This document shows, piece after piece, positions 6,909 to 44,576 of a DNA stretch of 64,000 nt. Position 1 is the stretch's first letter; every line of letters begins with the position of its first letter. This stretch comes from Azolla caroliniana (lineage: Eukaryota > Plantae > Polypodiophyta): contig JBHGNT010000004.1 of the NCBI GenBank assembly GCA_043228905.1, forward strand, positions 17,174,001 to 17,238,000. Reading direction: 5' to 3'. A model generated the notes under the pieces. It ran no database searches, was not told where the DNA came from, and was given only the letters and a program-made list of their open reading frames with translations. The position numbers and the translations under genes were made by a program.

Positions 6909-8132
6909 TGTTAGGAATATGTCCATCCTATGGGAGGAGCTAACTGTTCGGTTGAGTAAGAGCCGACAGTCGAAGACCAGGAGTAGCCAACTAGTCGGGT
7001 TGAGAGCCGACTGTTCGAACCAACAGTTGAAGACAAGGAGGAGCCGATTGTTCGAACCGATAGTCGAAGACAAGGGGTAGCCGACTGATCGGTGTTTATC
7101 CTAGGCTGGACTAGCCACAAACACATGGTGTCCTTCCGGAACACTTCACCAAACGGTGGTTAAGGGAATGATGTTATCCGACACAAATCTGATTGTAATC
7201 GGACTGATTCCGGATACATTCCAGATTCGTAATAAGCAACTATTTTATTAAAACACACGTAAGATAGAGAATGAAAGCACATCACGACAAATAGACAAGG
7301 GACACAATAATCTTAAATCAAAACTCGAACTTGTATTTCTTTGGCTATTCATTACATCGATTCCCGAATCCTTTTATAGACATCCGGTTAGAAATACAAA
7401 ATGTTGCCTTACCAACTACCAGATCGGTACAACTATTCCGGATCCGTCCATTCCTATAATATTCCTAATTACTAGTTAATCTAATTATCATATCCGACTC
7501 GTCCCTTTTCACATATATTCCTCCGGATCAGACTCCGGCCAACAATCGGGTTGAGAGAGGATAGTTGATGACAAGGAGGAGTCGACATGGAGATTCAACA
7601 ATATATATGTGATCCAAGTCGAAGACACAAACGACTCATCGGGCCGACCAGATGGTCGATGACAAGGTCGACTAGTCGGGCCGACTGGACAGTCAACACT
7701 GGAATCGGCTAGTCGAATCAACTAGTCAACCAGTTAGCTAATTAGCGATTGTTTTTATTATATAACAGTAATAACATACATATTTGTAAATAGCCCATAA
7801 AGTGTATAAGTATAAATACACTTAGGACAAACACATGATGTAGAATAGAAAGTGTAGAACTTAGTGAAGTGTTGTAGTGTAAGTTTAGTGAGAGTGCATG
7901 AGAGAAAGTGGCGACGGAGTTCAACGAACTTGCCAAGAACCCTAAGTGGCTATCCGCTGAGATTCAGAGAAGTGTTGTAACCGTTTTCTGAATAGTGGAT
8001 CTCTATTCTTGTGGTTTTCCCCATTTAGGGTTTCCACGTAAAATTGTGTATCTTGTTCATTTTTTGTTGTTTCTATTCCGAGTTGTGTATTTCTGCATAT
8101 CTTTCTCACAGATATTTGATTTAGCTCCTTCA
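6909..8132 (+). mobile_element. Solo LTR of a Tork/Tnt1-like copia family, itself containing another solo LTR
   Basis: TGTTAGG...CCTTCA with TSD AAGAA (6904-6908, 8133-8137). Removing it restores the RT reading FDKLRRAMVGIGY. Similar to the LTR at 10151-10781. Confidence 0.92.
7093..7544 (-). mobile_element. Solo LTR (452 bp) nested in a solo LTR
   Basis: TGTT...AACA termini; TSD ATCGG (7088-7092, 7545-7549); minus-strand TATAAAAG near 7372-7379. Confidence 0.9.
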
Positions 8133-9348
8133 AAGAAGGGCTATGGTGGGTATAGGATACCAACAAACGAATGCATACCATACAATGTTTTTTCGACAAC
8201 ACAAGGAGCATACTACATTACTTGCTATGTATGTGGATGATATAATTATCATGGGTAACAATGAAGGAGAAATTGCCCAACTGAAGGTGCAATTGGGTAA
8301 AGAGTTTGAGGTAAAAGATTTAGGATTGCTACGATACTTTCTTGGAATTGAGGTAGCTCGTGGAGCAGAAGGAGTTGTTCTATCTCAACGAAAATATGTA
8401 TTAGATCTTCTCACAGAAACTGGAATGTTGGGTTGTAGGCTCGTAGCTTCTCCAATCAACCAAAAGATCAAGCTAACTAAACTTGAGGAGAGAAAGTTGA
8501 TAGTGAAAGGTATCAAAGATGGGTAGGTTGGCTGATTTATTTGACTCACACCTGTCCAGATATTTCATTTGCAGTAAGTGTGGTAAGTCGCAAATTACAT
8601 GCATGATCCGATGAAAGATCATATGGATATAGTATACCATATTCTGAGATATCTCAAAGGTGCCCCGGGGAAGGGATTGATATTTAGAAAACATGGTCAT
8701 TTTAACATTGAGGGCTATTATGATTTTGATTGGGCCAATTGTGTTGATGATAGGAAATCCACATCAGGATACTACATGTTTGTTGGGGGTAATCTGGTCT
8801 CTGGAAGAGTAAGAAACAGTCAGTAATAGCAAGGTCAACAGTCGAAGCACAGTATAGAGCTATTGTTGTAGGAGTTGCGAAGATGTTATGGCTAAGAACT
8901 CTCCTAGTAAAACCAAAGGTGAATCAAGAAAATCAGATGATGTTGTGGTGTGACAATAAGTCAACAATCAGTATTGCCAACAATCCGGTACAACATGATA
9001 GGACCAAGCACATCAAAATCAACACATTCTTTATCAAGGAGAAGCTTGATAATGGAATATTAAAATTGCGTCATGTTTTTATTGGACATCAAGTAGCAGA
9101 TTGTCTTACAACGGGACTTGGGCCAGTAAGTCTTACTAGATTGTGTGACAAGATGGGCTTAGTGAATATTTTTTCGCCCATCTTGATGGGGAGCATGATT
9201 AAAAGTTATAATTGTTAGTTAGCTCCAACAGCTAGTTAGCCCAACGGCCAGATCTTGGCCTTTATAAAGAGGAACTTTCTCCTCATGTAAATATGAGTGA
9301 TCCATGTATTTTCTCCCTCATGTATGTGCCTTCTCATTTTTCTATTCA

Positions 9349-26555: not shown

Positions 26556-26940
26556 TGTCGTGAAGATTTTCGGCAATAGTGTGAAAATCCCATAAAACGT
26601 ACGAAATCGAGTATTAATCACATAATACAATAATTGTGAAGATAACATTTTAAATAAATTTAATATCTAAGTACAAATGATGGAGGTTTCGAATGCACTT
26701 TATTACACGAGAAATGGACAACTAAATGTCAAGATATGAGGGTATAAAGTTTGTGAAAGGAAAAGAGAAAATTGTGAGATATCCCACATAGGCATGACAA
26801 ATACGGCTCTCATCATATATAAGGTAGAGCAAAAGATATTATCTTTGTGTCTATGTGTGGAGCATAGAGAGTTCAAGGTAACTTGAACTAAGAGTGGAGG
26901 TGGCCTAGCTACTTGTAAAGGGTTTTGGCCAACCAAAACC

Positions 26941-26994
26941 GGATTCGAACCTTGCACCTCCAAGTTAGGAGTCAATTGGCTTACCATTAAGCTA
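26941..26994 (-). promoter_or_regulatory. tRNA-like Pol III internal promoter (A box + B box) in LTR U3
   Basis: Minus strand reads TAGCTTAATGGTAAGC...GGTTCGAATCC. The D-stem GCTT/AAGC is intact and the A-to-B offset is 43 nt. Confidence 0.7.
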
Positions 26995-27198
26995 TGCCAT
27001 TTAGTTGAATTTATATTTCTATCATTGTATGTTTACATGTAAATTCTCATACATGAGAGCTAAAATGAGTGACATGCACCTCCAAGTTAGGAGTCAATTG
27101 GCTTACCATTAAGCTATGCCATTTAGTTGAATTTATATTTCTATCATTGTATGTTTACATGTAAATTCTCATACATGAGAGCTAAAATGAGTGACATG
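26953..27198. repeat. Exact 122-bp tandem duplication inside the LTR
   Basis: The unit TGCACCTCCAAG...GAGTGACA starts at 26953 and again at 27075. Confidence 0.92.
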
Positions 27199-28701
27199 GT
27201 TATCATGCACCACATGTAATACATAAATGCCAAATGGCAAACATGCAATTTATGCATGTCTTGTACCTTCACATGCATCATATGCATGAGAGCATCTATA
27301 AAAGAAGGAAGGGGGAGGAGAAAAAACACGTTTTTTTTTTGTTATGAAATTAAGAAGAAGAAATTCGTTATCAAATTGATCGTGTAACTTGTTTCTTAAA
27401 TCTAAAGTTAAAAGTTCAATCAATCTCTCTCAATCGTGTAATCTCAACTTCTCTCTTTCCCAATCTATCTTAAGTACTTTCTCGCCAAAGCTTGTACTGA
27501 CTTTGAATCCTTCTGGTCCAGAACCCTGGCGGTTCCGCCTCACGATCCGCGCGTAGTGACGGATCTTCACGACATAATTAAGTGGTGAACCCGACGTGAA
27601 AAAGGCGGTAGGAAGGATCAAGTCGAGATTAATACTTGGAGATGGCGTCCTCAAGCAACCAAGCGGGAGAGCTCGAAAGGATGATGCTAATCGTCGAGCA
27701 AATGATGAGATCTCGGGACAACGACGCGAGCGTGGAGAAGGCTGTCGATCGTGTCGTAGAGCTCGAGGGCCAATTCGATGGAAGGAATGTTACGAAGTTC
27801 CTTGATGCATATAGAAGGGAGATGAATCAAAGGGACGTGTCCGAGGCACGTCAAATCGCAAGCTTCAAGAGAGTTGTCGCCAACAACATCCAAAGACGCA
27901 TCATCGAGCTTCAAGAAGGTAAGACAACATGGTTCGAGTTCGAGAAAACGATACTAGCGGAGTTCGTGACTGAAGACTCAACGAGGATGACTCGACATGC
28001 CCTGATGAAGTGGATAGAGAAGAAGAATAAGAAGATGAGCGTCTCGAGGGTGTACGACGAATTCGACCAGATGTTTAGTCGTCTCCCCAATACGGACCAA
28101 GTGTTGCTTGAAGAGGACAAGACTTTGTACTTCTTGAAGGCCGTGGACATAAAGGATAGACGGGAGTTGGGGACTCTTCTCGAAGATGATACCCAAGCAA
28201 ATGGGCTCGTAGCGGATTGGATCGCGGTGAAGCGGGCATGCAATAGGCTCGACAAGCGTCACCAATGGGTTGATGACACCGACTTGACGGGACCGACTAC
28301 CACGGAGAAAGCAAGACCGCTAAAAGTAGCTGAGCCGCCAAGACAAAGTAACGTGGAAGAAAAGAAGATTGATGACGACATCATTGAAGAGCTAGCGAAG
28401 AAGTTCGAGAAGGTCACGCTAGCCAACATGAATCGTCGGGGCCCTAAAGGAAAAGAATGTTAAGCGTTGGGATAACAACACAACCAGTCACGAATAAGAA
28501 CGCATCAACAAGGACGTAGTACGAAGAGGAAACGGCAAGAGGAAAGGAAAGCAAAGAGACGGCCAAATGTGAAAGGCCCATACCCTAAACGTTGTCGTAG
28601 TGTATTTTGTACACTACGTGAAAAACGTATATAGTATTAGATTCAATAAAAAATGAAGAAATAGAAGAAAATAGCAAAATAAATGGAACATGCATAGGGC
28701 A

Positions 28702-28755
28702 AGATTCGAACCTTGCACCTCCATGTTAATAATGTAATGTCTTACCATTACACTA
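28702..28755 (-). promoter_or_regulatory. tRNA-like Pol III internal promoter in the 5' LTR U3
   Basis: Minus strand reads TAGTGTAATGGTAAGAC...GCAAGGTTCGAATCTTGC. T-arm-like hairpin GCAAG/CTTGC; A-to-B offset 43 nt. Confidence 0.68.
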
Positions 28756-29344
28756 GCATTTCATTAGTGTTAAAGTATAGATGTCCCACATAGAAAGGTA
28801 AATTCACGCTAGGATAAACATTAGAAAAACGCATAACAAAAGAAAAAGCTACACATACACATCTAGCGTGCATGATAAAAAACGCACAAGTTAGAAAAAA
28901 GCATGATCACTTTAGATAAAGCATATAGTCTATCTATAGGAAAAGCATGGGGTCTATAGTTAGAGAAAAAGCATGGATTACTAAGACTTCCTCATCACTA
29001 CATAAGGATGGGAAGCACAATGTAATTATGTGTGAAATATTTGGGAAATTGGATATATTTCCTAAAACACCAATTAACAAACTATACTCGTGGGATTCAC
29101 GAGATTTCTATATCTTTCTCTATCAATCTAAATACATATTCTTACATAAATATTAATCAATAAAATACATTATACTTGTGGGATTCACAAGTTTCTAATA
29201 ATCTACTCATAATTATAATAGTCTCAAATTCTTCCTCCTCCTAGTCCAAAACCCCAGTGGTTCCCACCCGACTCACGCAAACGATCCGGAGCCGAAAGGC
29301 ACGACACAGTTGGTGAACCCGACGTGAAGGCGGGTGGCAAGGAG

Positions 29345-31369
29345 ATGGAGAATCAACAAGAGGCAATGAGCATAACGATGATGATGATGTTCGAGCGGAT
29401 GCTACAAGAACAACGAGCGATGTCGGAGATGAAGGCGGCAGTAGAGCGGCTTCTGCGACGAAACGGGGAATTCAACGGTAAGGGTGTGTCATGCTACCTA
29501 CGTGAATATAAGGCGGAGATGATGCAATATCGGATACCGGAAGGATTGCAAGTGATATCCTTTAGTCGGGTGGCCTCGGACGAACTACAAGAGAGAATCC
29601 ACAAGATACAACAACAAAACTCGACATGGGAGTCCTTTGAAGAAGCTTTACGGGAGGCATATGACTATGAGAGATGGACGGGACGAGATCGACGAGAATT
29701 CGACGAATGGGTGGCGTCGGAGAAGACTCACCGAAGTGCAACGCAAGCGTTCCTAGAGTTCGAGCATCGTTTTGCTCGACTCTCGGAGCGGGAACGACGA
29801 TTGGTGGGAGAAGATAAAGTCCTAATGTTCGTAAAATCGATCGATCGAAAAGAAAGGATGGACATCGGGATCGAACTCGAAGACGATGAAGGTACAAATG
29901 GTCTTACCGAGGATTGGGCTAAAGTCGAAAGGGTATGCCGAAGACATGATGAAAGGAAGCTGAGAATCTCGTCAACAACGACATGGCCCATGAAGGATGG
30001 TCGATTGAGGAAAAACGATGAAGCCAATATGAAGGCCGAAATACAACATGATGGTACCACGGGAGAAAGAGTGGAACAAGACACCCACTCGTCTTGTGAA
30101 AGAACGATGGCGAAGGATAAGGCCGATAATTCAAGTGTAGAAGGAAATTTCGGGATACAAGTGCCCGAGACATCGGGTCAAAAAGGGGTAAGCATAATAG
30201 ATGTTTGCATAATTGATGCAGATAAAGAGTGTGAAGCGGATGTGATTAAGGAGGTAGCCACAAAAGACGAAATCGAATCGGAGGTGGCTATGGACGAATC
30301 AATGGCGGATTGCCATATCGAGACTTCCCCACCACTGATTCCAGAGACTCCGGCGGTTGCGATCGAAAGGCAATGTGAGACCGAAGAGACGGAAGGTGGC
30401 GGAGAGAAAATGAATGTTGAAGCCGACGAATACGATGAAGAGATAGCCGAGAAGAATGCTAAGGGTGAAACTACGAAAGAAGGTAATACCGAGGATTCAT
30501 GCCAACAATATCTAGAGACTTCGGCGGTTGTGTCCGAGAACCAACGTGAGACCGGAGAGACGGGAGATGGCGGCGAGGAAGGTAAAGTCGGAAGTCGGTT
30601 CGGATGGAAAATGATCCATCCGAAATTCCAATCTAAAAGAAAGTGCGACAATGCGGAGGTCGGGTCTACGACGGGAGAAGCGCGTAATACAGAGCACGCT
30701 CTACGGAGAATAAAGAAATGCGTGTTATGGCGAATAAAGAAGCACGCGCTACGGCGAGAAAAGAAGCATGCATTACAACCACACGAGGACCGAACAACGA
30801 GCACATATCGGAGGACCTACGTAGCGAACAACGAAAAGAAGTGCCGAAAGTCGAACCGGACAAGGCAGGTGAAAACGAAGAAAAGAAAGCAAATCCGGAC
30901 GAAAAGAAAAGAAAAGAAACCGACCCGAAAGAGCACTGAATCGGTAAAAACCGATCAACCGAGTCCGGATCGACCGAATACAAATCGGAAAGGAAGCCGA
31001 ACTAAACGAAAGACGATCCGACGAGACCGAATCGGAAGTAAGCTAATCCGACTAAACCGAAAATCCGAAAAGAAGTCGAGATTGATGAAGAAAAGAAAGA
31101 GGGCAAGAAAAGATACTACCGCGGATGACAAGGACCAAGCGGGCCATGCAAAAAGCGAACGAAGACTATGGTGGATCGGATGTCGACAATGGTTCGGGTG
31201 GAAAGAATGGATGTGCTCCAAATGGAGAGACAAAGTCAATATAACAAGAGAAGTCGAGGGTACTACGAGCCGGCAACGAAACCAATCGGGTAGAGACCAG
31301 ATGGAGGAGACTAACAAACACCAACAACTTCGGCACATACCGGAGGATGTGCGGGTTTGGAGGGGGTGA
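29345..31369 (+). CDS. Gag-like protein with long acidic then Lys/Arg-rich extension (674 aa from ATG 29345)
   Basis: Uninterrupted ORF filling the whole internal region. The N-terminal ~210 aa align with the other two Trp-primed Gags (GEFNGKGVSCYLREYKAEM, VLMFVKSIDRKER, GLTEDWAKVERVC). Confidence 0.85.
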   Translation: MENQQEAMSITMMMMFERMLQEQRAMSEMKAAVERLLRRNGEFNGKGVSCYLREYKAEMMQYRIPEGLQVISFSRVASDELQERIHKIQQQNSTWESFEEALREAYDYERWTGRDRREFDEWVASEKTHRSATQAFLEFEHRFARLSERERRLVGEDKVLMFVKSIDRKERMDIGIELEDDEGTNGLTEDWAKVERVCRRHDERKLRISSTTTWPMKDGRLRKNDEANMKAEIQHDGTTGERVEQDTHSSCERTMAKDKADNSSVEGNFGIQVPETSGQKGVSIIDVCIIDADKECEADVIKEVATKDEIESEVAMDESMADCHIETSPPLIPETPAVAIERQCETEETEGGGEKMNVEADEYDEEIAEKNAKGETTKEGNTEDSCQQYLETSAVVSENQRETGETGDGGEEGKVGSRFGWKMIHPKFQSKRKCDNAEVGSTTGEARNTEHALRRIKKCVLWRIKKHALRREKKHALQPHEDRTTSTYRRTYVANNEKKCRKSNRTRQVKTKKRKQIRTKRKEKKPTRKSTESVKTDQPSPDRPNTNRKGSRTKRKTIRRDRIGSKLIRLNRKSEKKSRLMKKRKRARKDTTADDKDQAGHAKSERRLWWIGCRQWFGWKEWMCSKWRDKVNITREVEGTTSRQRNQSGRDQMEETNKHQQLRHIPEDVRVWRG

Positions 31370-31479
31370 GTGTCGTAGTGTATTTTGTACACTACGTGAA
31401 AAACGTATATAGTATTAGATTCAATAAAAAATGAAGAAATAGAAGAAAATAGCAAAATAAATGGAACATGCATAGGGCA

Positions 31480-31533
31480 AGATTCGAACCTTGCACCTCC
31501 ATGTTAATAATGTAATGTCTTACCATTACACTA
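31480..31533 (-). promoter_or_regulatory. tRNA-like Pol III internal promoter, 3' LTR copy
   Basis: Identical to 28702-28755. Confidence 0.68.
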
Positions 31534-32631
31534 GCATTTCATTAGTGTTAAAGCATAGATGTCCCACATAGAAAGGTAAATTCACGCTAGGATAAACATT
31601 AGAAAAACGCATAACAAAAGAAAAAGCTACACATACACATCTAGCGTGCATGATAAAAAACGCACAAGTTAGAAAAAAGCATGATCACTTTAGATAAAGC
31701 ATATAGTCTATCTATAGGAAAAGCATGGGGTCTATAGTTAGAGAAAAAGCATGGATTACTAAGACTTCCTCATCACTACATAAGGATGGGAAGCACAATG
31801 TAATTATGTGTGAAATATTTGGGAAATTGGATATATTTCCTAAAACACCAATTAACAAACTATACTCGTGGGATTCACGAGATTTCTATATCTTTCTCTA
31901 TCAATCTAAATACATATTCTTACATAAATATTAATCAATAAAATACATTATACTTGTGGGATTCACAAGTTTCTAATAATCTACTCATAATTATAATAGT
32001 CTCAAATTCTTCCTCCTCCTAGTCCAAAACCCCAGTGGTTCCCACCCGACTCACGCAAACGATCCGGAGCCGAAAGGCACGACAACGTGAAAGCTATATA
32101 AACCACATAGTAGTGGCTTTGTGGGGGTTCTCCCATTTGTAAAGATCTCCTATTGATTAGAGCTAGAGCTTCCTCTCCTCCTTCTTGTAACCTTTGAGCT
32201 TAAGAGAGATTAGTGAAGTGTTGAGTTAGAGAACACTAATCTCTCTCCTTGTTGGTGCTAGACCTCTTAGCAAAGAGGGTTAATAATAGACATACTCTTT
32301 CTTCTTATTGTCTATATCTATTAATCTATTGTCTATAAGAGAGAGCTTGAGAGAGTGAGAGAGATATCGTGTTTAATCATTTACTAATCGTTGAGTGAGT
32401 GTGAGGCTCGGAGGTATCCGACAACCATCTCCGCCCGATTCGCCATCAAGAGGGTATACGACGGTCCGAATCCCGCCACGACATCGAGGAGCTTACTCCA
32501 TCGATACATAGATCCTTAACATCTATTTGGCGCCGCTGCCGAGGATACGATCAACGCTTGAAGCCCATTTTTGAGTGGTCAAAAACTCGGAGGCAAACCA
32601 CTCAACGAAGGAAGAAATCGCAAGAGAACCA

Positions 32632-32970
32632 CCATTTTCTGTTTTTCATCATTTCAAAGTTGAATTAAGTCCCATTTTCTGTTTTTTCATCATTTCATAG
32701 TTGAATTAAGTCCCATTTTCTGTTTTTTCATCATTTCATAGTTTAATTAAGTCCCATTTTCTGTTTTTTTCATCATTTCATAGTTTAATTAAGTCCCATT
32801 TTCTGTTTTTTCATCGTTTCATAGTTTAATTAAGTCCCATTTTCTGTTTTTTCATCGTTTCATAGTTTAATTAAGTCCCATTTTCTGTTTTTTCATCGTT
32901 TCATAGTTTAATTAAGTCCCATTTTCTGTTTTTTCATCGTTTCATAGTTTAATTAAGTCCCATTTTCTGA
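32632..32970. repeat. Tandem array of 8 copies plus a partial copy of a ~41-bp AT-rich unit
   Basis: Unit CCATTTTCTGTTTTTTCATCrTTTCATAGTTTAATTAAGTC, starting at 32632, 32672, 32713, 32754, 32796, 32837, 32878, 32919 and 32960. Confidence 0.95.
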
Positions 32971-33121
32971 TTTTTAGCTCGGTTAACATTAAACATTGTG
33001 GAGGTTTAGGCCGTTACGGGGCAAGCATAATCACCGTGAGTCTCGCGGCTTACGATCACTCCACGGGTCACAAAGCGACCGTTGGCGCCAAAAAGTTTGA
33101 ATTTCCCACGCAAAGCTCGTC

Positions 33122-33413
33122 GAAGATTCAACCTTCGACGAAGATTCATCCTTTGACGAACATTCAACCTTCGACGAAGGTTCATCCTCCGACGAAGGTT
33201 CATGCTTCGACGAAGATTCAACCTTCGACGAAGGTTCAACCTCCGACGAAGGTTCATCCTGCGACGAATCTTCAACCTGCGACGAAGATTCAACCTGCGA
33301 TGAAGGTTCAACCTCCGACGAACATTCATCCTCCGACGAAGATTCAACCTGCGATGAATCTTCAACCTACGACGAAGACTCATCCTTCGACGAAGATTCA
33401 CCCTTCGATGAAC
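33122..33413. repeat. Tandem array of 16 x 18 bp, followed by an A-rich tract (33418-33458)
   Basis: Unit GAAnnTTCAwCCTnCGAy with an exact 18-nt period. Confidence 0.95.
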
Positions 33414-34039
33414 TTATAAAAAAAAAAAAGAAAAAAAAAAGAAAAAAAAAAGAAAAAAGCTTGACCAGAAAACATGGCTGGATCCTCATGGACAAAAATG
33501 CTCAAAACCCGACCTGCACGCCTGGAAGAGTCCACGCAAACCGACCAAACCCACGATGCTGGCCCGCCTAACCCGACTCAGTACCACGGAGGGTGGCTAA
33601 CTCCGGGGATACTACCAAACATGAACCTCCCATCGAGCCCAGGAACTAAAGCACTTCTCAACACACCCCCACTACAGGAGAGCCCAATGGCAAACCCACT
33701 CAGTGTAGAACGACATATACGAGACGCAGCAAGTGATAGAACACGAAATCAATCTATGGACGGTACAACTTGCGAAAGGAGGACAACCGGAAAGCACCAC
33801 TCGAGATATCGAAGCTGCTTTGGCCGAAAGGAAGGATAGATTCGCACGAGTGCAACAAAAACTTCACCGCCTAGAAACATCGTCGCACATACACCGCCGA
33901 AGTCAGGAGCACAGCCCTGTACCGTGTTTGAGCACAACGGGCGATAGCCCGAACGAAACCCACGCACAACGACACCCGGCACCACCATGCATGGGCACAA
34001 TCCCTACACCTGACCAAGCTACCCCTACACCTCCAAACG

Positions 34040-34229
34040 CCGAACTCGCACTAGCGCTATCTGTGTCCATTCGTGTCTTCTGCGTTGATAGGGCCGTGTC
34101 CTTGAGTTTCTTTGCTCATACGTAACCGAGCGTCTCTCTCTTTCTCTTTCCCCTTCTATCACCTGCTCTTTGGTTCAAGACCCCGGTGGTCCCGCCTCGT
34201 TCTCCACGCACGCGCGTAGCAACGCGACA
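34040..34229 (+). mobile_element. Truncated LTR 3' end of the Trp-primed gypsy lineage
   Basis: ...GGTTCAAGACCCCGGTGGTCCCGCCTCGTTCTCCACGCACGCGCGTAGCAACGCGACA matches the U5 end of the 36082/43115 LTRs and is followed by CCGT. Left boundary approximate. Confidence 0.8.
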
Positions 34230-35087
34230 CCGTTTCGTTTGCTTCTTGTTTGAGGGCGAAAAGTTGGTCAATCGGGTTCCATTTATTCCCTCGACGAGCG
34301 AAGTTTATCAAGAAATCCTCGATGACGTACTCGAAATCGGCGACGATGTCTTCATTCAAGGTTCGAAACCAAATGTCGGCTTGGTCGTCAAGTGTGAGTC
34401 CAAACGTAGCTACCTTGGTGATCTCTGTGAGGGGTTCATAAGCGCGGCAAATCTGTTTGAACCTCTCGACATGGTCATAGGCATCGCCGAAACTGAGGAA
34501 ACGGGGTACTAGTTTAGAAATGGAAGCACTCTTCCCACCAGTTCATCTTTGGCAGTCGCTGCGTCTTGCTTGAGCTTGGCTTTCACGATTTCAAACGATG
34601 CGGTTATCCCGACAAGCTTTTCCTCCATTTCCTTCGTATGTAGGTCGTAGCATCGAAGGAGTCGATCCGAATTCACAACTAACTCCTATAGATACCGTTC
34701 TTGTTCCCGTTCCCGGTCCTGTGCCACGGAGGTTTGTAGTTGGTGGAGGGACTCTAACAATCTATATTTGTCCCGTACCGCTTCTTCCAACATTTCAAGT
34801 TGTCCGCTACACCTTTCCTAGAGTTCCGTGTGCTTGTTTTGGAGACTGATGAGTTGTTCGTTTGTAATGGTCACAACACATTGGTATCCTTCCTCAATGT
34901 CATGTATTTTGGCTGCAAAAGCCTCGTTTGCTACCCTAAGAGCCAACACGACATTTTCTTTAGTTTCTCGAAGCTTGGCTATCTGTGCGTCGAACCGTTC
35001 TTGGAGTTCGGCTTCGTGTTTTGTTGCCTGCTCCCGGATTTGGTCGGCTTCTACTTTGGTAGCTTCATAGCACTCTTTTGCTTTAGT
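34230..35087 (-). pseudogene. Gag fragment of another gypsy family (coiled coil + Retrotrans_gag-like domain)
   Basis: Manual translation gives PRFLSFGDAYDHVERFKQIC..KVATFGLTLDDQADIWFRTL..FLINF..QLFALKQEANETV, with in-frame stops upstream. Confidence 0.75.
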
Positions 35088-37348
35088 TCCCCAACAGCGA
35101 ATCCAACGGGCATTCCCCGGCCGGGCCCGAGAACATAACCTCCATCCCTACCCTGAACACCAAAAGAGCCGAAGAGCAGCCGGTTGAAATTCCTCCCACA
35201 GCCACCAAGCAGCAAGCCCAGCAAACCAACCCATTCTGGTCGTTACCTCAAGAAACCCCACAGGAGGAAAATAGAACTGAAGAATCTACAAGCGAAACGA
35301 TTGCAGCAATGACGTTGACAGAACCACCTGCACTCGAGGTCCCTACCGTCGACACAACTGAATTGGCTCCAAATGAGCCGAACATTTTGCATATTTTTTA
35401 CGAAGCCTAATCGGCCCATGGGTTCGACTGAGCATGCACTGTCCCACAGGCCTCCCATGTGTTGGCCGGTTCGAACAACCAAGTGTGAAAAGGATATGAA
35501 ACGACTACGGTTACGAATCCTAATTAGCCCATGGGTTTGATCATGCATTCACTGTCCCACAGGCGCGCCATGTGTTGGCCGGTTCGAACAACCAAGTGTG
35601 AAAAGGCTATGAAACGATTATGGGCCAAACTGAAGACGGGTGGGGTCGAGCAAGCAGTAAAGAAAGCCGAACTTAAAATGGAAATATTTATTATTAGTAG
35701 GAGTGGTTCACGCTTTGTTCGTAACCGCCCATGATCCCTATAAAAAGGGACATGGAAAGCATGTAAAGTTTAATCCAAATAGTGTTGTATCAAGTGTTCT
35801 TTTGCTAATAGAAATCTCATTGCTCATATTCTGTCTTTGTTTTCTGTGTCAAGTTTTATCTGTGTTGGGTTTCCCTATGTACTCTGTGTATCGTATACAT
35901 GACCGATCCGTTGTAGCCAGTTCAAGTTCAGTCTCCACAATCAGAGCAACTCGATTCATACGTGTGTCGCTCGCGATTGAAACTCACTAAGCGACCCGAC
36001 AATACTTCCCTTCCCCGACCACAAAACCTTGAGTCGGATACCAAAGGAACGAGTATCGGAAACCATGTTACCTTAAGCCAGTGTCGCGTTGTTACGCGCA
36101 TGCGTGTAGAAAGAGGCGGGACCACGGGGGCCTTGAACCGAGGAGCGAGAGAGAGAGAGAAGAGAAGAGAAGAGAAGACTTGCAGATACGCAAAAGGGAG
36201 AAGGAAAGAGAAAGAAACGACACACTTGATTACAGTAACAGTCGATTACAATATCCAAAGATTGCAAACTCTAACGATTACAACCGGCAAGGCGGCGATG
36301 AACCCCACACGGGGATCCTACTCACGCACACAAACAGAACACACTCGACTCAAAGAAACAAAAAGGGGAGAGCCTCTGTTGGAAGCACACGGGTTGTCAA
36401 CGAAGCAGAGGCAACGAACTCCTGACACCCACAAAGACCGACGATCGGAGGAGAAGAGAGAGCTCGGCACTCAGTTCTGCAGCAGCACTTCGTCCTCGCC
36501 AATGCGCACCCTCCTTTCTTCCTTCTCTGCCTCCTTAAATAGTTCACAAAAGGGGGACCGTTCTTCCCTAGTCAAATCTCTTTATTCCCTGTCCCTTTTG
36601 ACAGAGATACGCACCAATCTTCTAGTAATAAATATGTACTACCTAGTATTTACATCAGCCGACCTAATTATGAATTATGGCCACAATATCAATTCTCGCG
36701 TCCACCTATGTGAGCGCCGGTTCATGCTCCTTTTTCTCCAATTCCGCCTATGGCCGATTTTCTTCACGACATCAACCCCCACCAAACCGCGCATCCACCG
36801 GCATGCGCCAGAGACGGGTAGATACCGAAGAAAACTGGCTTCACTCGTCGCTCTCCGATTCTTCGCCGGGCCCGAACCGATCGTCGTCGTCGCTCTCGCT
36901 CGCCGGCTCCGGCTCGTCTTCGAACTGGTTCTTGAACACTTTGATCCGCTTCCCAGCCACTGGTACCGCTAACCATGTCCCGTCGAGTTCTGCGAGGTGG
37001 TACGTGTCGTTGTCGTTCGCGCTCGTCACCGTGTAGGGCCCGAACCATCTCCTAGCGAACTTTCGCACCGCCTTGTGCTGATTGTCGAGGTTGTTGTCGT
37101 ATACCAAGACCCAGTCGCCTTCCTCGACCTTCTTTGGTCACAACCGGTGCGTCCGGTTGAACCGGGTCTTGTTCCGCTCCCTTGCCACCCGTAGCTTTTC
37201 CTTTGCTCGTTTCATGTCCTCCGGCCTCCGCTCGAGCTGCCGAATCCACTCCGCCAGCAACTCCTCCCGACTTATCTTGTCCTTCCAATCTACCGCCGCC
37301 CACGAAGAAACCATATGTTCCACCGGCATGATCGGCTTCTGTCCATAC

Positions 37349-38088
37349 TGACGGGAACTCAACGCTCCTTATGTCCAACGCTCGGCCACAACCGAGATTC
37401 TTTTCATACACAGAAAACGGGAAATAAAACGTGACACAAAGAAGAAGAGAATACACAGGAGGTTTACGTGGAAAACCCCAAACTAGGGGGGAAAAACCAC
37501 GGCAGCCCACAGGCTGCAAACTGTCACTATGTAAGAATGTACAACAGTGAGTTCACTAAGGCAACGACCTCGTGCTCACAGATCTTTGCCACAGGCGGCG
37601 GTTACAACAGAGGCAACGACCTCTTTCTCTCTGTACAGTTACGCACACTCTCTATACTTGCACCAACAAGAAATGACAACTACACAACCACATATTTGCC
37701 CTAAGTCATATTTATACTAATATGACTTTTTGGCTATTTACAAATATAGCCTCGATGGGCTCTCAGAAACATATTTACGAATATGTCTCTTCCTCCGGTT
37801 CTCACCGGGTCTGCGTCATCCGGCTCTCCGTAGCCGGGTACTCCTCATCCGGTTCACACCGGGTCTGCACCATTCGGCTCTCTGTAGCCGAGTACTCCTC
37901 ATCCGGTTCATACCGGGTCTGCACCATCCAGCTCTCCGTAGTCGGGTACTCCTCATCCGGTTCTCACCGGGTCTGCATCATCCGGCTCTCCGTAGCCAGG
38001 TACTCCTCATACGGTTTTGGCCTCGGCCGAGTTTGTTCATCGGCACTGTTCTTCTCACTTCCCATCCAGAGGGACTTGTCTCCCAACA
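37349..38088 (-). mobile_element. Solo LTR (740 bp) of the Tork-like family at 59869, inserted in the gypsy integrase
   Basis: TG..CA ends and TSD CATAC (37344-37348, 38089-38093). Shares GGATGGGAAGTGAGAAGAACAGT..AAACTCGGCCGAGGCC with the 59869 LTR. Contains 4 x 54-bp repeats at about 37795-38010. Confidence 0.93.
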
Positions 38089-41000
38089 CATACATCAGCT
38101 CTGCCGGCATAAACCCTGTCACCGAACTGTGCGTAGTTCGGTCCGCCCATAGTGCGTAAGGAAGGAGCCACAGCCAATTCCCGACCTGCCCTTCGCATGC
38201 ACGCACCAACGCCTTTACGATCGGCCCGTGCCCATGTTCTACCTTCCCGTTCGCCTCCGTATTGTACGCCATAGTGAGGGAGAGTTTGACCCCTAGCCGA
38301 TCAAACAGCTCCTCAACTTCCTGCGCATCCAGCTCTCCCCGGTCCGCCACAATCCTCCCGACGCACCCGTACCGACACACTACCTCTTTGATCAGGAACC
38401 GGCATACCGCCGCGGTAGTCTTGTTCTGCAGTGCACGGCCTTCCACCTAGTTCGTTAAGTCTTCCTGCGCAAGCACCAGGTATCGCATCTATCCTACTCC
38501 CATCGGCATCGTCACCAAGTCCACTATCCACTTGGAATGGACCGTAGGCGGGTAGGTCGGGTGTAGCTCGTCCCGATGTTGGACTACGGAGTGCATCTGA
38601 CAGCTTTCGCAAGTCGTTACGAACCAATGCACGTCTCGGTACAGCCCCGGCCACCAGTACTTCTCCTTCAACTTCTCGAATGTGGCCCACGTTCCGCGGT
38701 GCCCGGCCCAGGGACTCTCGTGAAATGCCGCCAGTAATTCCTCCTGTTCTTCTTTCTTTGCCACTACTCGGAGCAAGATGCCGTTTCTTTTCTTTGGGTG
38801 CCTCCATATGCACCCGTCACGTAGGAAGAATCGGTACGCCTTCTTCCGTACCCGGCTCGCTTCTTCTCTCGTCCACGCTCCGTCCGGCGTCATCGCCCAT
38901 AGGAACCTCCCGATTTGGAGCCACTCCCCGTTGTACCTGCTTTCGTCAAATTCGTTAAGCGCCGGAGTGTCCCCTTTCCTTGTCGTCACGTTAGTCGACC
39001 CGAAGAAGTCCTCGTCGACTTCTTCGTCATCCAAAACCATGCCGTCTTCGTCATTGAACCTCACTCTCGAAAGCATGTCGGCCATGGCGTTATCCTTTCC
39101 GGAGATGTGCCGTATCTCCGGGTTTAGGGACTTAATGTACGTTATCCACCGGAGCATTGCTAGGTCCGGCGTCGCGCATTCAGAAACCATGTCGAGTATC
39201 GACAGGCAATCCGTCTCAATGATCACTTCCGTCCCGATCAGATAGTCCTTGTCGGCCTTGATTGTCGAAACGATACCCCAAAGCTCGCGCTTAACTTGGG
39301 CGTATCCTCGCTACCGCTCGCTCAATACCTTCGCCCCGAACCGGATCGGGAACTGTGCGCTATCCTCGTCCTCCTGATTGATCAACCACCCGATCCCGAT
39401 CGGGCTCGTGTCCACCGTCACGTAGATGGGGACTCCCGTGCCATAAACCACTTTACGGAGAGCTGGCGCTACCGTAAATGCCTCCTTTAGTCTCCGGACC
39501 GACTCCATGTGCTCCATCCTCCACTCAAATCTATGCCCCTTTTTCAATAGTCCGTAGAGGGGTTCCGCGACATGCGCGTAGTGCGGGATCCAGATGTGGT
39601 AGAACGCGCATGCTCCCAAGAATCTGCGGACCTACGAGACCGACCCGCAATCGTTCCTCATCACGGAGATGGCCTCTACCTTTGCCGGAGACGGTTTCCT
39701 ACTGTAAGGCCCGAACAGGTGTCCGACCACCAAGATCTCTGACTGCCCGAACGCCAATTTTTCTCCGAAGAAGGTGAGTCGTGCATTTTCGAGCCTCTGC
39801 AACACCTTCTCGTAGTCGTCGATGTGGTTCACGACGAACCTCCGGCATCCGTCCGGCCCGACAGTCTCGTCCGCATCATCCACCGAACACCCCTTTATCG
39901 GGATGTCATCCAAGAATGGCATGGTGATGTCCGGGATGCAGTCCCTCAACACCTTGTTCATTGCGTTCACCATATGCGCCACCGAATTCATCCCGCCTTG
40001 TGGTAGGGTACACATCCGTACTAGGCCGAGAGGGGTTCGCATCGTCGTGATATCCCTGCTCTCCACGGCTAGCTGGAACTAGTCGTGCCCCGAGTATAAG
40101 TCACCGAAGGCCTCCGCGAACTCGTCTATGGTCGGTCCGATTCCTGCATTACGGATGGTCACCTTGTTGACCGGTTGCAGGTCCTGAATGAAGCGCAACG
40201 TGCCGTTCTTCTTCGGCACCGTAAACTGCCAATTCGAATACGGGGCACTTGACGGTTCGAGGATGCCCATCTCCACCTTTTGCTTCAGAAGCTCCATCAA
40301 CTTCGGGATGTGACCTCTCGGCACCGGAATCGGTTTGAGATTCCACAATACATGCGGTACCGTGAAGATCACCATCGGTTCGACAATCGCCGGGTCCACG
40401 CACCCAATCTCCCCCGGCGAGAACGCGAAGGCTTTCCCATGCCTTCCGAGAATTCTCCGAAACCTGTTCTCCTCTGCCGGTAGTAGAAAGCCACCCCCAC
40501 CAACCTTGAGCTCTCGTAGTGTTATGTCGGTGAACCGGTGCCCTATGCTAGCCGGATTCCGTAAACTTGGGTCGAACGCGACCCCTTTTATCCACTTCTC
40601 GCTGCCCTCCGGCAAGGATGCCGCGACCGGCCTCACCTTCCGGTCCACAGTCTTGTACTTTGTACCCATGCGGGCCATCCAATCTGACCCGATCCTTTCC
40701 CCGAAGTCCACGATGACTTCGTACATTCCCATCGAACCTACCGGAATGGTTCGGTCTTCTCTAAGGTATTCACCAATCACTGTTCGCAACTCGCCCAAGG
40801 TGTCGTCAAAAGAGACCGCCTCCACGGCGCCGCTGATCTCTTCGTCGAGGGAGAGGACTCTGCATCCCCTAAGCTGCTCCTCCGCTCACTTCCTTTCCCG
40901 GCCGCTGACGCTTGCTATAGTACAACCTCCATTTTCGAAGAACCAAAATTTCCTACCTACTATACATGTGTGGGGTTCTTCCGGTACGTCCGAACTACCA

Positions 41001-42398
41001 CAGCCCCACACCTTGATAGCTCTCTCTAAAAATCCCCTCGACTGTCACCGTCGGCGGTCATGAATTGGACGGAATGCCGATCGTCCTGGCTCTTGACGCA
41101 CGCGTACGCTGAACCGTTGTCGTGGAACTCCCTCTTGGCGATTCCCAGCACCTCCCGCAACAACAACTCCACTTTACTGTCGAGGATCCGCTCTTCAAGG
41201 ACCTTCCGTAGGTCCGTTGCTCTCTCGATTTCGGTGCTCAACCGAAACCCCGCCTGCTTCTTTCCGTCCGGCGCGCCTGGGTGGCCAGCACCGGTTGGTT
41301 TCGGTCCGAACCGGGTCTCGTACCTCTGCGGGGGACCGACCACCCCGGCCTTTCCTGCCCATTTGTCTTCAACCAGAACCTCGTAGTTCTGGCAAACGGC
41401 TTCTACGAAGCCCGTTTTCTCTTCGACCGAATCGTCCCATCCGGTGACCTCCTGGACCCGCTGTTCCGCGCAGTCCGCCTCTTCCTTCTTTAGCCGAACT
41501 CCGGAGAGGCCTTCTAGCACTAGCGGCCAGAATCCAGAGTCCCTCACCTTCCGGGTCTCATCACCCCCGACCCGAATTCCCACCGACACTGAGTAGTTAA
41601 CGGCTTCTACGCGTCGCGGCCTCTTCCATCAACCTCTTCATTCCGTCGTGCCCCGTATTTGGTTCTAGGGTTCTCTGGGTCTCGCTCGCGTGCACTCGCC
41701 CGTTCTAGAGGTACACCACGTTGGTCCTAAGCGCGTCGGCGAAATCCGCGCAATCCTTCCGAATATGACTGATTCCGTCACACCACATGCACCGCTGCCC
41801 AGTCGGCGGCCTCCGGTTGCGAGGTTGTTCGCCGCTGTCTCTCCGTGGCTATGCGATCTGCAGGTCGCGCACCATCTGTGTCAGCTCCCCCAGAGCCGCT
41901 CCTCCGGATGGGCCTCTGACCACGTCGTTCGATGCCGACCCCGACGAGCTCTTCCTTCCTACCGGCTGGCACCGACACCGGCTCCTTGAGCCTCCTTGCC
42001 GGGACCGGCCCTGACCCCGACGAGCTTTCGTCGCTCCAATCGCGCGGCTTGTCGAAACGGCTGTAGACCCGTTTTACCACGGCCCAATCTGTCGTGAGCC
42101 CTTCGTCTGTTTCCAATTGGGGACCCACCTTTTCCCTGTGTTAGGAATAGTACTAAAGCAGAGATGGAATTAGTACTAAGAAGAGTAGTACTATTAGTAC
42201 TAAGAGGACGGGACTGCGTAAGATTCCCGAGAGAGAGGAAGTGAGAAGAGGAGAGAGAGAGATAGGATGATGACAACAGCTCTTATATTATATGAAAGAT
42301 AAGTACAAATCGGCTAAGAGGCTTAAGACTGGTGTTGAACCAATTTGGTTCAAAACAATGCCTTGTGCCTCCTTTTATAGTGTTTTTAGGAATAATCC

Positions 42399-42418
42399 TG
42401 AAGCTTCTAGAATGTTCC
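42399..42418. promoter_or_regulatory. Perfect four-unit heat-shock element
   Basis: tGAAgcTTCtaGAAtgTTCc, about 20 bp upstream of the LTR TATA box. Confidence 0.75.
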
Positions 42419-42493
42419 AGAGAGATCTGGAATATACATCAATTTTCTATGATAAAACATAAATGAAAATAATATCCTACAAATTACAATTCA

Positions 42494-42547
42494 TAGTCTA
42501 ATGGTAAGAGCTCGACCCATGTAGCATAAGGTTATGGGTTCGAGTCT
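42494..42547 (+). promoter_or_regulatory. tRNA-like Pol III internal promoter in solo-LTR U3
   Basis: TAGTCTAATGGTAAGAG...GGTTCGAGTCT; A-to-B offset 43 nt; antisense to the LTR. Confidence 0.68.
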
Positions 42548-44492
42548 TGCCATATCATGATACCCTATCGAGCGCGTCCACCGACTTAACAAACAGTAGT
42601 ACTCGACTCGTTTCGAGCACGGTCCGGTCCAGCGTCGACAGCCGTGCGAACCGTTTTTCGAACTCCTGGAGGAGCGCCGACGTGTTCCTCCCCTTTCCGG
42701 GGCTTTCCACCCACGCCATGAAGTCCCGCCTCGACAAACAAAGTGAGTCGTCAAACCCGTACTTCTCGAGGAGCTGCAGCTCGAACTCCTCCCAAATCTG
42801 GCATCCGGCCAGCACCTCGAGCACCTCCGCGTGGATGCCCGGCGTCACCACCCGAGGGAATCCGGACAGCCGCCTGTCCGCCAGGATATCCCTCATGATC
42901 ATTTCGGCCCAGTAAGCCTCCAAATAACTTGTGGCGTCTTTCCCTTCGAACCGGCCTATAGTGTCGACAATCGATTCAATGGCTTTGTCGAGGGTACCCG
43001 TCCCCTCACGAGCGCTTACCAGCCGGTCGACGGCTACCACCATTGCCTCTGCTAGCTCCGATCCCCTCATCTTTCGACTCCTTTGCCGCATGTTCACGTC
43101 GGGTTCACCAAAGATGTCGCGTTGTTACGCGTGTGCGTATAGAAAGAGGCGGGACCATGGGGGCCTTGAACCGAGGAGCGAGAGAGAGAGAGAAGACAAG
43201 AGAAGAGAAGACTTGCAGATATGCAAAAGGGAGAAGGAAAGAGAAAGAAACGGCGCACTTAGTTACAGTAACAGTCGATTACAATATCCAGAGATTGCAA
43301 ACTCTGACGATTACAACCGGCAAGGTGGCGATGGACCCGACACAGGGATCCTACTCACGCACACAGACAGAACACACTCGACTCAAACAAACAAAAAGGG
43401 GAGAGCCTCTATTGGAAGCACATGGGCTATCAACAAAGCAGAGGCAGCGAACTCCCGACACCCATAGAGATCGACGATCGAAGGAGAAGAGAGAGCTCGG
43501 CACTCAGTTCTGCAGCAGCACTTCATCCTCGCCAACGCGCGCCCTCCTTTCTTTCTTCTCTTCCTCCTTAAATAGTTCACAAAAGGAGGATTGTTCTTCC
43601 CTAGTCAAATCGCTTTATTCCCTGTCCCTTTTGACATAGATACGCACCAATCTTCTAATAAATATGTACTACCTAGTATTTACATCAGCCGACCTAATTA
43701 TGAATTATGGCCACATTATCAATTCTCGCGTCCACCTATGTGAGCACCGGTTCATGTGCCTTTTTCTCCGATTCCGCCTATGGCCGGTTTTCTTCACGAC
43801 ACCGGTAACACTTTGTACAATCTCTCTCATAGTGATTTGTACCTTATCTACTAAAGGTACATCTAGAGAGACAACTTGATTGATCAACCCCTAAAATACA
43901 TTCAGGTGTTCTGCCATACTAGAGTCATCATGGTATTTCAATCTTACTATCATTCGAATTTAGAAACTTTGTTCAAATCATTCCTAGCTTCGAACATACT
44001 CTTGATTTTCTTCCACAACACAACAAGTTATTATATAAACTCATGTCAATAAAACATTGTATGCACAAGGTTATTTAAAAATGCATGAGTACTCAAGTCC
44101 CTACATCTACATTTTTTAGTTTTGTCGTACCACATTGTACCGTCAACCACATAACCTTGCCTAGTAACAAATCCCTCATTTTGGACTTCCATATTAAGTA
44201 ATTGGGTTTAGTCAACTTAAGCATCATACAAAAGGATTCATCCATGTTCTAATCTTATAGAAAATATGAGCCTCGGCATTGATACCATTTGATGGTAAAA
44301 GGGGCATCAAAATTCCAATCAATAAGCACACACAATGAAATGAAATCATGTTCTTTTTCCCTTAACTTCCATTATAAATACATATTGGTATTTCCCTTAT
44401 ACTGGTACGCTCTAAATGTAATAGGGAAATACATATTGATTATAAGAAAAATGAAGGGAAATGCAATATGAAATCATGTTCGTTTTCCTTTA

Positions 44493-44576
44493 TACTAGTA
44501 TGGTCTAAATGCAATAGGGAGTTTTTATGGCAATGCAAATATAAAAACTCCCTATTGCATTTAGACCATACCAGTA
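44493..44576. mobile_element. 84-bp foldback element, possibly a Tourist/PIF-type MITE
   Basis: 36-bp inverted arms with one mismatch around a 12-nt loop, flanked by TTA on both sides (44490-44492, 44577-44579). Confidence 0.6.

What the first reader, a model, noticed from the sequence alone, without database searches (positions are those of the whole stretch)
26941..42547. Dissimilar LTR families each carry an antisense tRNA-like Pol III cassette in U3 with identical A/B-box spacing
Seen in sequence: three LTR types that are otherwise not alignable by eye in U3 each contain an A box and a B box whose starts are exactly 43 nt apart. The LTRs are 26556-27574, the 28593/31371 pair, and 42139-42562. 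A boxes read TAGCTTAATGG, TAGTGTAATGG and TAGTCTAATGG, each followed by TAAG; B boxes read GGTTCGAATCC, GGTTCGAATCT and GGTTCGAGTCT. The anticodon-arm spacer has diverged and no acceptor stem forms. Every cassette is in U3, antisense to the element and pointing out of the LTR 5' end. Established: this is type-2 Pol III (TFIIIC) promoter geometry; tRNA genes and B boxes act as chromatin barriers in yeasts; Cassandra TRIMs carry 5S Pol III boxes in their LTRs. Inference: these retrotransposons may carry a captured tRNA-gene-like module that insulates the LTR promoter from surrounding heterochromatin or drives an outward Pol III transcript. I do not recall this being described as a shared feature of plant LTR families. 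Caveat: two of the three types belong to one lineage, so shared ancestry explains part of the pattern.
Basis: partly seen in the sequence, partly recalled or inferred. Interest (0 to 1): 0.85.

Follow-up and report, generated by a model that had tools for sequence, protein, structure and literature searches.

The report
Backward tRNA promoters inside moss retrotransposons
Two distant lineages of protein-coding jumping genes, in what is likely a moss, keep thousands of back-to-front tRNA-gene promoter boxes at the outer edge of their terminal repeats while the DNA between the boxes has drifted, so the boxes likely recruit the RNA polymerase III factor TFIIIC and would help keep the element's own promoter open; binding and effect are untested.

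Summary
The four A/B-box cassettes (43 nt, antisense, U3) are family features (86 of 90 LTR copies), not sporadic SINE insertions. The genome holds 3,475 exact matches (reversed control 0). About 20 spacer types occur in two gypsy lineages with ~27% Pol identity: Phygy-type and a Tcn1-type chromovirus. Across types the B box, the core A-box bases, an unnoticed AGGT eight bases before the B box and the 43/44 spacing persist, while spacer and flanks fall to ~30% identity; no RNA fold is shared. This points to selection on a DNA site, likely for TFIIIC. Against: the commonest Phygy clade lacks it (27 of 30), the A box is no better kept than nearby U3 within clades, 43 nt is an ordinary tRNA spacing, a single origin is plausible, and nothing functional was testable. 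tRNA-like LTR segments are known (Helenus, 2024), but there they are sense-oriented in non-coding mini-elements. The scan noted similar cassettes in probable fungal LTRs. New variant of a known kind; barrier role inferred.

The parts
26556..27574 (+). 5' LTR of a Phygy-type gypsy element (family F1); atypical copy with a U3 deletion and a 122-nt duplication
   Evidence: family elements of about 7 kb with RNase H and integrase
26942..26994 (-). F1 cassette: A box, spacer, AGGT, B box; closest tested tRNA is the genome's tRNA-Arg(UCU), 35 of 53
27075..27196 (+). tandem duplicate of 26953-27074, carrying a second A box but no B box
27296..27308 (+). TATA-like box of the F1 LTR (predicted Pol II promoter), head-to-head with the cassette
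27583..27599 (+). primer-binding site of Phygy-type elements (tRNA-Trp type, label recalled)
28593..29306 (+). 5' LTR of a 3.5-kb gag-only Phygy-type element (family F2), 4-nt TSD ACGT, LTRs differ at 1 site
28703..28755 (-). F2 cassette in the 5' LTR, T4 run about 20 nt past the B box
29311..29327 (+). primer-binding site of F2
31371..32084 (+). 3' LTR of the F2 element
31481..31533 (-). F2 cassette in the 3' LTR
42139..42562 (-). solo LTR of a Tcn1-type chromovirus (family F3), 5-nt TSD with one mismatch; family elements 5.6-6.5 kb with RT, integrase and chromodomain
   Evidence: a DNA contig skips it
42494..42546 (+). F3 cassette at the extreme 5' end of U3 (about LTR positions 17-69); no terminator before the LTR end; folds as one long hairpin
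42371..42380 (-). TATA box of the F3 LTR; a 12-nt self-priming complement lies 33 nt downstream and marks the likely U3/R border
36082..43801 (-). host Phygy-type element of the dominant clade; its LTRs (36082-36771, 43115-43801) lack the cassette (internal control)

Best explanation
The cassette is a worn tRNA-gene promoter carried in U3 by several protein-coding Phygy-type and Tcn1-type gypsy families, and it is likely kept by selection as a DNA site for TFIIIC (and probably TFIIIB) that would hold the neighbouring LTR promoter open, barrier-fashion, in heterochromatin. Shown: family-wide presence, antisense U3 position head-to-head with the TATA box (about 115-250 nt away), selective retention of B box, AGGT, core A-box bases and 43/44 spacing against a saturated spacer, tandem doubling with both copies' boxes kept. 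Inferred: TFIIIC binding; benefit to the element; any short RNA being a by-product; one old capture (tRNA or SINE head) that passed between the lineages by LTR recombination; loss in the commonest Phygy clade. The filter would act only on the few replicating copies, since many resident copies have decayed at the B-box CpG.
For: 86 of 90 copies picked by whole-LTR BLAST carry it (30/30, 30/30, 26/30; the 4 misses are truncated). 24 of 28 chromoviral 3' LTRs picked only by their polypurine tract carry it complete. 3,475 exact 43-nt matches vs 0 reversed; 3,017 of these also have AGGT, which that search had not asked for. Among 20 types, chromovirus-vs-Phygy identity is 0.89 (B), 0.90 (AGGT), 0.73 (A) vs 0.28-0.34 (spacer) and 0.28-0.38 (flanks). 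In the box-blind chromoviral set AGGT 1.00 and B 0.87 exceed spacer 0.63 and U3 0.73-0.79. With spacing free from 30 to 59, all 28 antisense carriers among 67 PBS-anchored LTR rows have 43 or 44. At the B-box CpG the tolerated change (G to A) is the state of 11 of 20 type representatives, the box-breaking one (C to T) of 1 of 20, although single copies show C to T often (912 genome-wide, none of the first 100 a new type). Tandem pair in family F6: A 10/11, B 10/10, spacer 14/23. No shared fold or strand bias, so DNA rather than RNA is the likely target. TFIIIC-dependent barriers at tRNA genes and ETC sites in yeast (PMC12409998, passages); moss RLG1-type chromodomain elements are thought to target heterochromatin (PMC7466625, passages).
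Against: The dominant Phygy clade lacks it: only 3 of 30 PBS-picked LTRs carry it, so it is dispensable for success; its loss (rather than several gains) rests on one branch of 94/92 support and on one pol copy whose LTRs were checked. The A box is no better conserved than adjacent U3 within clades (0.72-0.74), and some chromoviral subfamilies have altered core A-box bases. Most of the 20 types were found by box patterns, which inflates box conservation and the CpG asymmetry; the Phygy half was anchored on AGGT and the B box. 23% of otherwise intact copies (912 of 3,929) have the C-to-T change, implying the box is often methylated. Barrier function of TFIIIC in plants is not established in what I read. 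No binding, chromatin or expression data.
Confidence: 0.45

Rival explanations
1. The cassette is a working Pol III gene whose short antisense RNA (about 90-120 nt, in some families a hairpin) is the selected product, for example tuning silencing or replication of the element, as Pol III miRNA cassettes do in foamy-virus LTRs.
For: Both boxes are kept, not only B; AT-rich upstream region; T4 within 46 nt of the B box in 10 of 11 intact Phygy antisense types. F3 folds as one long hairpin (z -5.0) and F2 as two (z -3.4). Pol III pri-miRNAs in foamy-virus LTRs are shown (PMC3993851, passages).
Against: Across 20 types folding is no better than on the opposite strand or in upstream U3 (mean z -1.14, -1.22, -1.33); the spacer is saturated; F3 and two other chromoviral types have no terminator inside the LTR.
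Confidence: 0.2
2. It is a passenger: one old tRNA or SINE-head capture inherited with the LTRs, its apparent conservation made by young copies and by my box-based searches.
For: Absent from the most abundant Phygy clade; flank matches between lineages suggest a single origin; A box drifts like U3; 43 nt is a standard tRNA spacing; an earlier scan note reached this view for a probable fungal LTR (e1-9852194, unchecked).
Against: Box-blind chromoviral sample and the unsearched AGGT show selective retention; spacer identity between lineages is at background while spacing changed by at most 1 nt; both copies of a tandem duplicate keep their boxes.
Confidence: 0.15
3. The conserved letters serve something other than Pol III: a Pol II activator site or an LTR-end signal for integrase or reverse transcription, read on the element's sense strand.
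For: In the chromovirus the B box sits 17-26 nt from the LTR end; AGGT is outside the textbook boxes (recalled).
Against: In Phygy LTRs the cassette is 100-700 nt from the end; the conserved positions are those of A and B boxes at tRNA distance; AGGT four bases before the B box also occurs in this genome's unrelated SINE and in Helenus LTRs (supplement passages).
Confidence: 0.1
4. The cassette is a landing pad that draws Pol III-targeting retrotransposons to a fixed distance upstream of the A box.
For: Proposed for chromoviral LTRs of a probable gut fungus in an earlier scan note (e1-10420520, unchecked).
Against: Only 8 copies in 12 clusters (128 copies, those with 260 nt upstream tested) lose similarity to kin within 220 nt upstream, at scattered distances of 42-220 nt; truncating insertions in other LTRs are also scattered. 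Small sample.
Confidence: 0.05
5. It is the element's own promoter for genomic RNA, as proposed for Helenus and shown for Cassandra.
For: Same kind of tRNA-like boxes in LTRs; a few sense-oriented cassettes exist (L206, F6).
Against: The cassettes point away from the element; the elements are 3.5-7 kb, coding, with TATA boxes downstream; Kojima argues autonomous elements must use Pol II (PMC10886601).
Confidence: 0.02

Closest known systems
Helenus / TRIMp3 (Kojima 2024, PMC10886601; parts 1-4 of 6 read, searched passages, supplement passages for 4 terms)
   Same: tRNA-derived segment in LTRs with conservation concentrated at boxes A and B, no functional tRNA, many coexisting families; one plant family (Selaginella); the paper remarks that 'not a few' Repbase LTRs hold tRNA-like parts.
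   Different: Helenus are non-coding, 311-1263 bp, and in the consensus LTRs I saw the segment is sense-oriented as the presumed promoter. Here it is antisense, at the outer edge of U3, in 3.5-7 kb coding elements with a separate TATA promoter, in two gypsy lineages, sometimes doubled.
Cassandra TRIMs (PMC7215508, passages)
   Same: Plant LTRs carrying Pol III promoter boxes.
   Different: 5S (A/C boxes), non-coding TRIM, drives the element's own transcript.
Foamy-virus LTR Pol III miRNA cassettes (PMC3993851, passages)
   Same: Autonomous LTR elements with A/B-box-dependent Pol III units in the LTR beside a Pol II promoter.
   Different: There the RNA product is the point and is shown; here spacer and fold are not conserved and the geometry is that of a tRNA gene.
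tRNA-gene and ETC-site chromatin barriers (PMC12409998, passages)
   Same: B-box-centred TFIIIC sites that can block heterochromatin without transcription.
   Different: Host-fixed loci in yeasts and mammals, not a module carried by mobile elements; not shown for plants in what I read.
Phygy and Tcn1 lineages (Neumann et al. 2019, PMC6317226, passages; PMC3350952, passages)
   Same: Carrier lineages: NCGN target preference without chromodomain (Phygy); chromodomain and self-priming (Tcn1).
   Different: The passages read describe no Pol III cassette in their LTRs.

Membership tests
Helenus / TRIMp3 | tRNA-like sequence with A and B boxes in both LTRs | tested here: met
Helenus / TRIMp3 | short (under about 1.3 kb), non-coding TRIM | tested here: not met
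   elements 3.5-7 kb with gag or gag-pol
Helenus / TRIMp3 | cassette oriented to transcribe the element | tested here: not met
   antisense in the 4 window cassettes, 28 PBS-anchored and 24 PPT-anchored LTRs; Helenus examples sense
Type-2 Pol III promoter | A box and B box at tRNA-gene distance | tested here: met
   43/44 nt vs 42-45 in this genome's short-arm tRNA genes
Type-2 Pol III promoter | AT-rich upstream region and downstream oligo-T terminator | tested here: inconclusive
   T4 within 46 nt in 10 of 11 intact Phygy types, absent inside F3-type LTRs; context is AT-rich anyway
Type-2 Pol III promoter | TFIIIC/TFIIIB binding and Pol III transcription | not testable with these tools
   no chromatin data; no RNA holder listed
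Functional tRNA gene | cloverleaf with acceptor and anticodon stems | tested here: not met
   ARAGORN 0, Rfam none, folds not cloverleaf
Recent SINE insertion | own TSD, body and tail; absent from sister copies | tested here: not met
   no flanking direct repeat at F2/F3 cassettes; present in 86 of 90 copies; no similarity to the genome's SINE beyond the boxes
Phygy (F1, F2) | non-chromovirus gypsy with NCGN target site | tested here: met
   no chromodomain; flanks mostly NCGN; feature from PMC6317226
Phygy (F1, F2) | placement in an RT tree with REXdb references | not tested
   no reference sequences held; tree uses this genome only
Tcn1 chromovirus (F3) | chromodomain integrase, no tRNA PBS, self-priming complement | tested here: met
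   Chromo E 3e-15; 12-nt complement 33 nt past TATA
TFIIIC chromatin barrier | blocks spread of silencing in a B-box-dependent way | not testable with these tools
   needs reporter and chromatin assays

The most novel reading that the evidence does not exclude
Autonomous heterochromatin-dwelling retrotransposons carry their own portable TFIIIC insulator at the LTR edge, have swapped it between lineages, doubled it and in some families made it CpG-free; thousands of such sites would rival the tRNA genes as Pol III factor sites in a moss genome, and the device may have come with Tcn1-type chromoviruses from fungi.
Probability: 0.3. Interest if true: 0.88.

Novelty: new variant of a known kind. 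Interest (0 to 1): 0.62.

Why it matters
How elements that insert into heterochromatin still get transcribed is an open question; a cis-acting TFIIIC site in U3 would be a simple, testable answer and would give plants a first handle on TFIIIC barrier function in a system with gene targeting (if the host is a moss). It also extends Pol III cassettes in LTRs from non-coding mini-elements to coding ones in the opposite orientation. At the least, more than 3,400 intact A/B-box pairs affect tRNA-gene annotation and the reading of Pol III factor profiles in this genome.

Tried and rejected
Parent tRNA: unresolved. Against 27 tRNA gene sequences from this assembly (an incomplete set, partly organellar-like) the best single matches were F1 and F7 to Arg(UCU) (35 and 36 of 53) and F6b to Gln (36); means differ little (Thr 30.0, Arg 29.4-29.6). 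Shared RNA structure: rejected. Homology of the upstream flanks between lineages: not significant overall; downstream matches to the chromoviral LTR terminus reach p 0-0.007 for 4 Phygy types, uncorrected among 96 comparisons, so transfer is suggestive only. The genome's SINE (L150, 17-nt TSD) as source: no similarity beyond boxes. Gag tree: built from unequal partial hits, not relied on. Landing pad: no support. Expression: no RNA holder listed; a guessed-RNA run gave 3 partial contigs at 42334-42466, none on the cassette, which says nothing either way. One search used a gap one base too long and so counted a 44-nt subset (65). Moss TE supplement search for box strings: 0 occurrences in 4 files. 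Literature searches without a description of antisense Pol III boxes in coding plant LTR elements: 0 papers; 0 papers; subscription papers, Repbase entries and figure images were not visible and may bear on novelty. Pol III transcription from the Drosophila mdg1 LTR is recalled only; one search did not return the primary paper.
Full report
Observation. The window holds exactly four A-box/B-box pairs, all 43 nt start to start, at 26994(-), 28755(-), 31533(-) and 42494(+); shuffles of the window give 0.47 on average under the same loose scan. The three LTR types do not align by BLAST. ARAGORN and Rfam do not recognise the cassettes and they do not fold as cloverleaves.

The carriers. The window lies in a 523-Mb plant assembly. 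F1 (LTR 26556-27574) and F2 (28593-32084) share a primer-binding site, lack a chromodomain and insert at NCGN sites, the marks of the moss Phygy clade in Neumann et al. 2019 (PMC6317226, passages). F3 (solo LTR 42139-42562) belongs to 5.6-6.5-kb elements with RT, integrase and chromodomain; they have no tRNA PBS, and the bases after the 5' LTR complement 12 nt lying 33 nt past the TATA box, the self-priming design of the Tcn1 clade of mosses and club mosses. That fixes the U3/R border and puts the cassette in U3. The two lineages share about 27% Pol identity. The host is therefore likely a moss; this rests on the element lineages.

Family feature, not a stray SINE. Of 90 copies picked by whole-LTR BLAST, 86 carry the cassette (30 of 30 F2, 30 of 30 F3, 26 of 30 F1), and the four misses are truncated. 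There is no TSD around the F2 or F3 cassette, whereas a true SINE of this genome (L150) has a 17-nt one and resembles the cassettes only in the boxes. An exact pattern finds 3,475 43-nt pairs against 0 for the reversed control; these counts include some real tRNA genes and SINE copies. Clustering 147 distinct cassettes from held loci gave 28 clusters, of which I used 20 placed antisense LTR types; 116 have 43 nt, 28 have 44. One Phygy family (F6) has two tandem cassettes per LTR plus a sense-oriented one after the TATA box. In metagenome contigs 44 of 56 pattern hits match these LTR families at about 75-95% identity, all from one accession series, so relatives exist outside this assembly; the other 12 are unrelated repeats.

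Box-blind samples. Of 30 loci picked by the chromoviral polypurine tract, 28 have integrase upstream and 24 of those carry a complete cassette within the first 90 nt of the LTR (9 at 43 nt, 15 at 44); the other four are deleted or truncated. Of 30 loci picked by the Phygy PBS only 3 carry it: the dominant clade, to which the window's 36082-43801 element belongs, has none. Of 20 further loci chosen for other PBS-flank variants, 19 gave a row: 11 carry it, 5 are cut by insertions before its place, 1 has lost the A box, 2 belong to other clades. An RT-RNase H tree of 14 copies places the cassette-less window element in a clade sister to F1 (94/92), inside the spread of carriers, which suggests loss but is not firm.

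Selection. Between chromoviral and Phygy types identity is 0.89 in the B box, 0.90 in an AGGT eight bases before it, 0.73 in the A box, but 0.28-0.34 in the spacer and 0.28-0.38 in the flanks. AGGT was not part of the first search, yet 3,017 of the 3,475 matches have it; it also precedes the B box in Helenus LTRs. Within clades AGGT (1.00) and B (0.87-0.91) beat spacer (0.63-0.66) and U3 (0.56-0.79), while the A box (0.72-0.74) does not (7 of 24 and 6 of 15 sequences kept as representatives; six chromoviral loci left out as non-chromoviral or truncated; the Phygy set was anchored on AGGT and B). With spacing free from 30 to 59, all 28 antisense carriers among 67 PBS-anchored rows score at 43 or 44. 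The B-box CpG decays in single copies (912 otherwise intact copies have C to T), but among type representatives the tolerated G-to-A state is seen 11 times and C-to-T once; box-based discovery inflates this contrast, though the first 100 C-to-T copies reveal no missed type. The F6 tandem copies keep 10/11 and 10/10 box bases but 14/23 spacer bases. F3 and F2 fold well (z -5.0, -3.4), but over 20 types folding equals that of the opposite strand and of upstream U3.

A 43-nt distance is common in tRNA genes of this genome (42-45) and matches the shortest yeast A-B gap (PMC12409998, passages). The bases past the B box in four Phygy types resemble the chromoviral LTR terminus (p 0-0.007, uncorrected), so the lineages may share one capture that moved by LTR recombination rather than converged. 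The parent tRNA is unresolved.

Mechanism. The pattern fits a DNA site for TFIIIC placed head-to-head with the Pol II promoter, between it and the flank. TFIIIC-bound tRNA genes and ETC sites act as heterochromatin barriers in yeast, and moss chromodomain elements are thought to target heterochromatin (PMC7466625, passages). I put 0.45 on a promoter-opening or barrier role, 0.2 on a selected short RNA as in foamy-virus LTRs (PMC3993851, passages), 0.15 on a passenger, 0.1 on a non-Pol III signal, 0.05 on a landing pad (not supported). None of binding, transcription or insulation was testable here.

Known systems. Kojima 2024 (PMC10886601; parts 1-4 of 6, passages and supplement passages) named TRIMs with tRNA-like LTR segments Helenus, including one Selaginella family, noted that other Repbase LTRs hold tRNA-like parts, and argued that autonomous partners use Pol II. 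These elements fail two Helenus criteria (size and coding; orientation). Cassandra uses 5S boxes in TRIMs (PMC7215508, passages). Nine searches found no account of antisense tRNA-type boxes in coding plant LTR elements; Repbase and subscription papers were not visible. Earlier scan notes describe tRNA-type boxes in LTRs of probable fungal elements, one back to front and one in chromoviruses; they are unchecked leads. Verdict: real, under selection in part, a new variant of a known kind, function inferred; interest 0.62.

Noticed in passing
L129:1476-2376 and 7790-8688; L142; L259; L155: Phygy-type families with two tandem antisense cassettes per LTR; F6 also has a sense-oriented tRNA-like cassette after its TATA box.
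   Followed up: partly
L206, about 800-860 (+): Short Phygy-type element whose 3' LTR carries a sense-oriented A/B cassette (44 nt) about 80 nt into U3; internal region between PBS and PPT is only about 200 nt, a possible Helenus-like TRIM.
   Followed up: no
L150:2688-3063; L151: tRNA-headed SINE of about 350 bp with A-rich tail and 17-nt TSD; head folds as a long rod (z -5.0).
   Followed up: partly
L065:1890-2160 (F1 family U3): Most F1 LTRs carry a variable-length GC-rich tandem array and an AT run between the U3 start and the B box; deleted in the window copy.
   Followed up: no
window 42334-42346 and L123:535-546, 747-758: Self-priming complementarity in the chromoviral family (12 nt).
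   Followed up: yes
window 28568-32524: F2 sits inside the LTR of another element (PBS-like site after 32524), which itself interrupts the F1 gag; F1's LTR interrupts a copia pol. Several levels of nesting.
   Followed up: no
window 44493-44576: Near-perfect 84-nt inverted repeat (MITE-like; sub-threshold Rfam miRNA hits).
   Followed up: no
window 32601-33016 and 33064-33459: Tandem arrays of 41-nt and 18-nt units in the internal region after the PBS-like site.
   Followed up: no
L091, L108, L109-L110: Tandem arrays of tRNA-Lys(UUU), tRNA-Ile(UAU) and tRNA-Arg(UCU) genes with repeated flanks and many degenerate copies.
   Followed up: no
L257, upstream of the PBS: Two weak sense-oriented box pairs just upstream of a Phygy-type PBS (score 12.8, below carriers, above shuffles).
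   Followed up: no
L269, L271, L274 and 7 more; L302, L313: Two unrelated repeat families in metagenome contigs with the same A-box/AGGT/B-box layout, no match to these LTRs.
   Followed up: no
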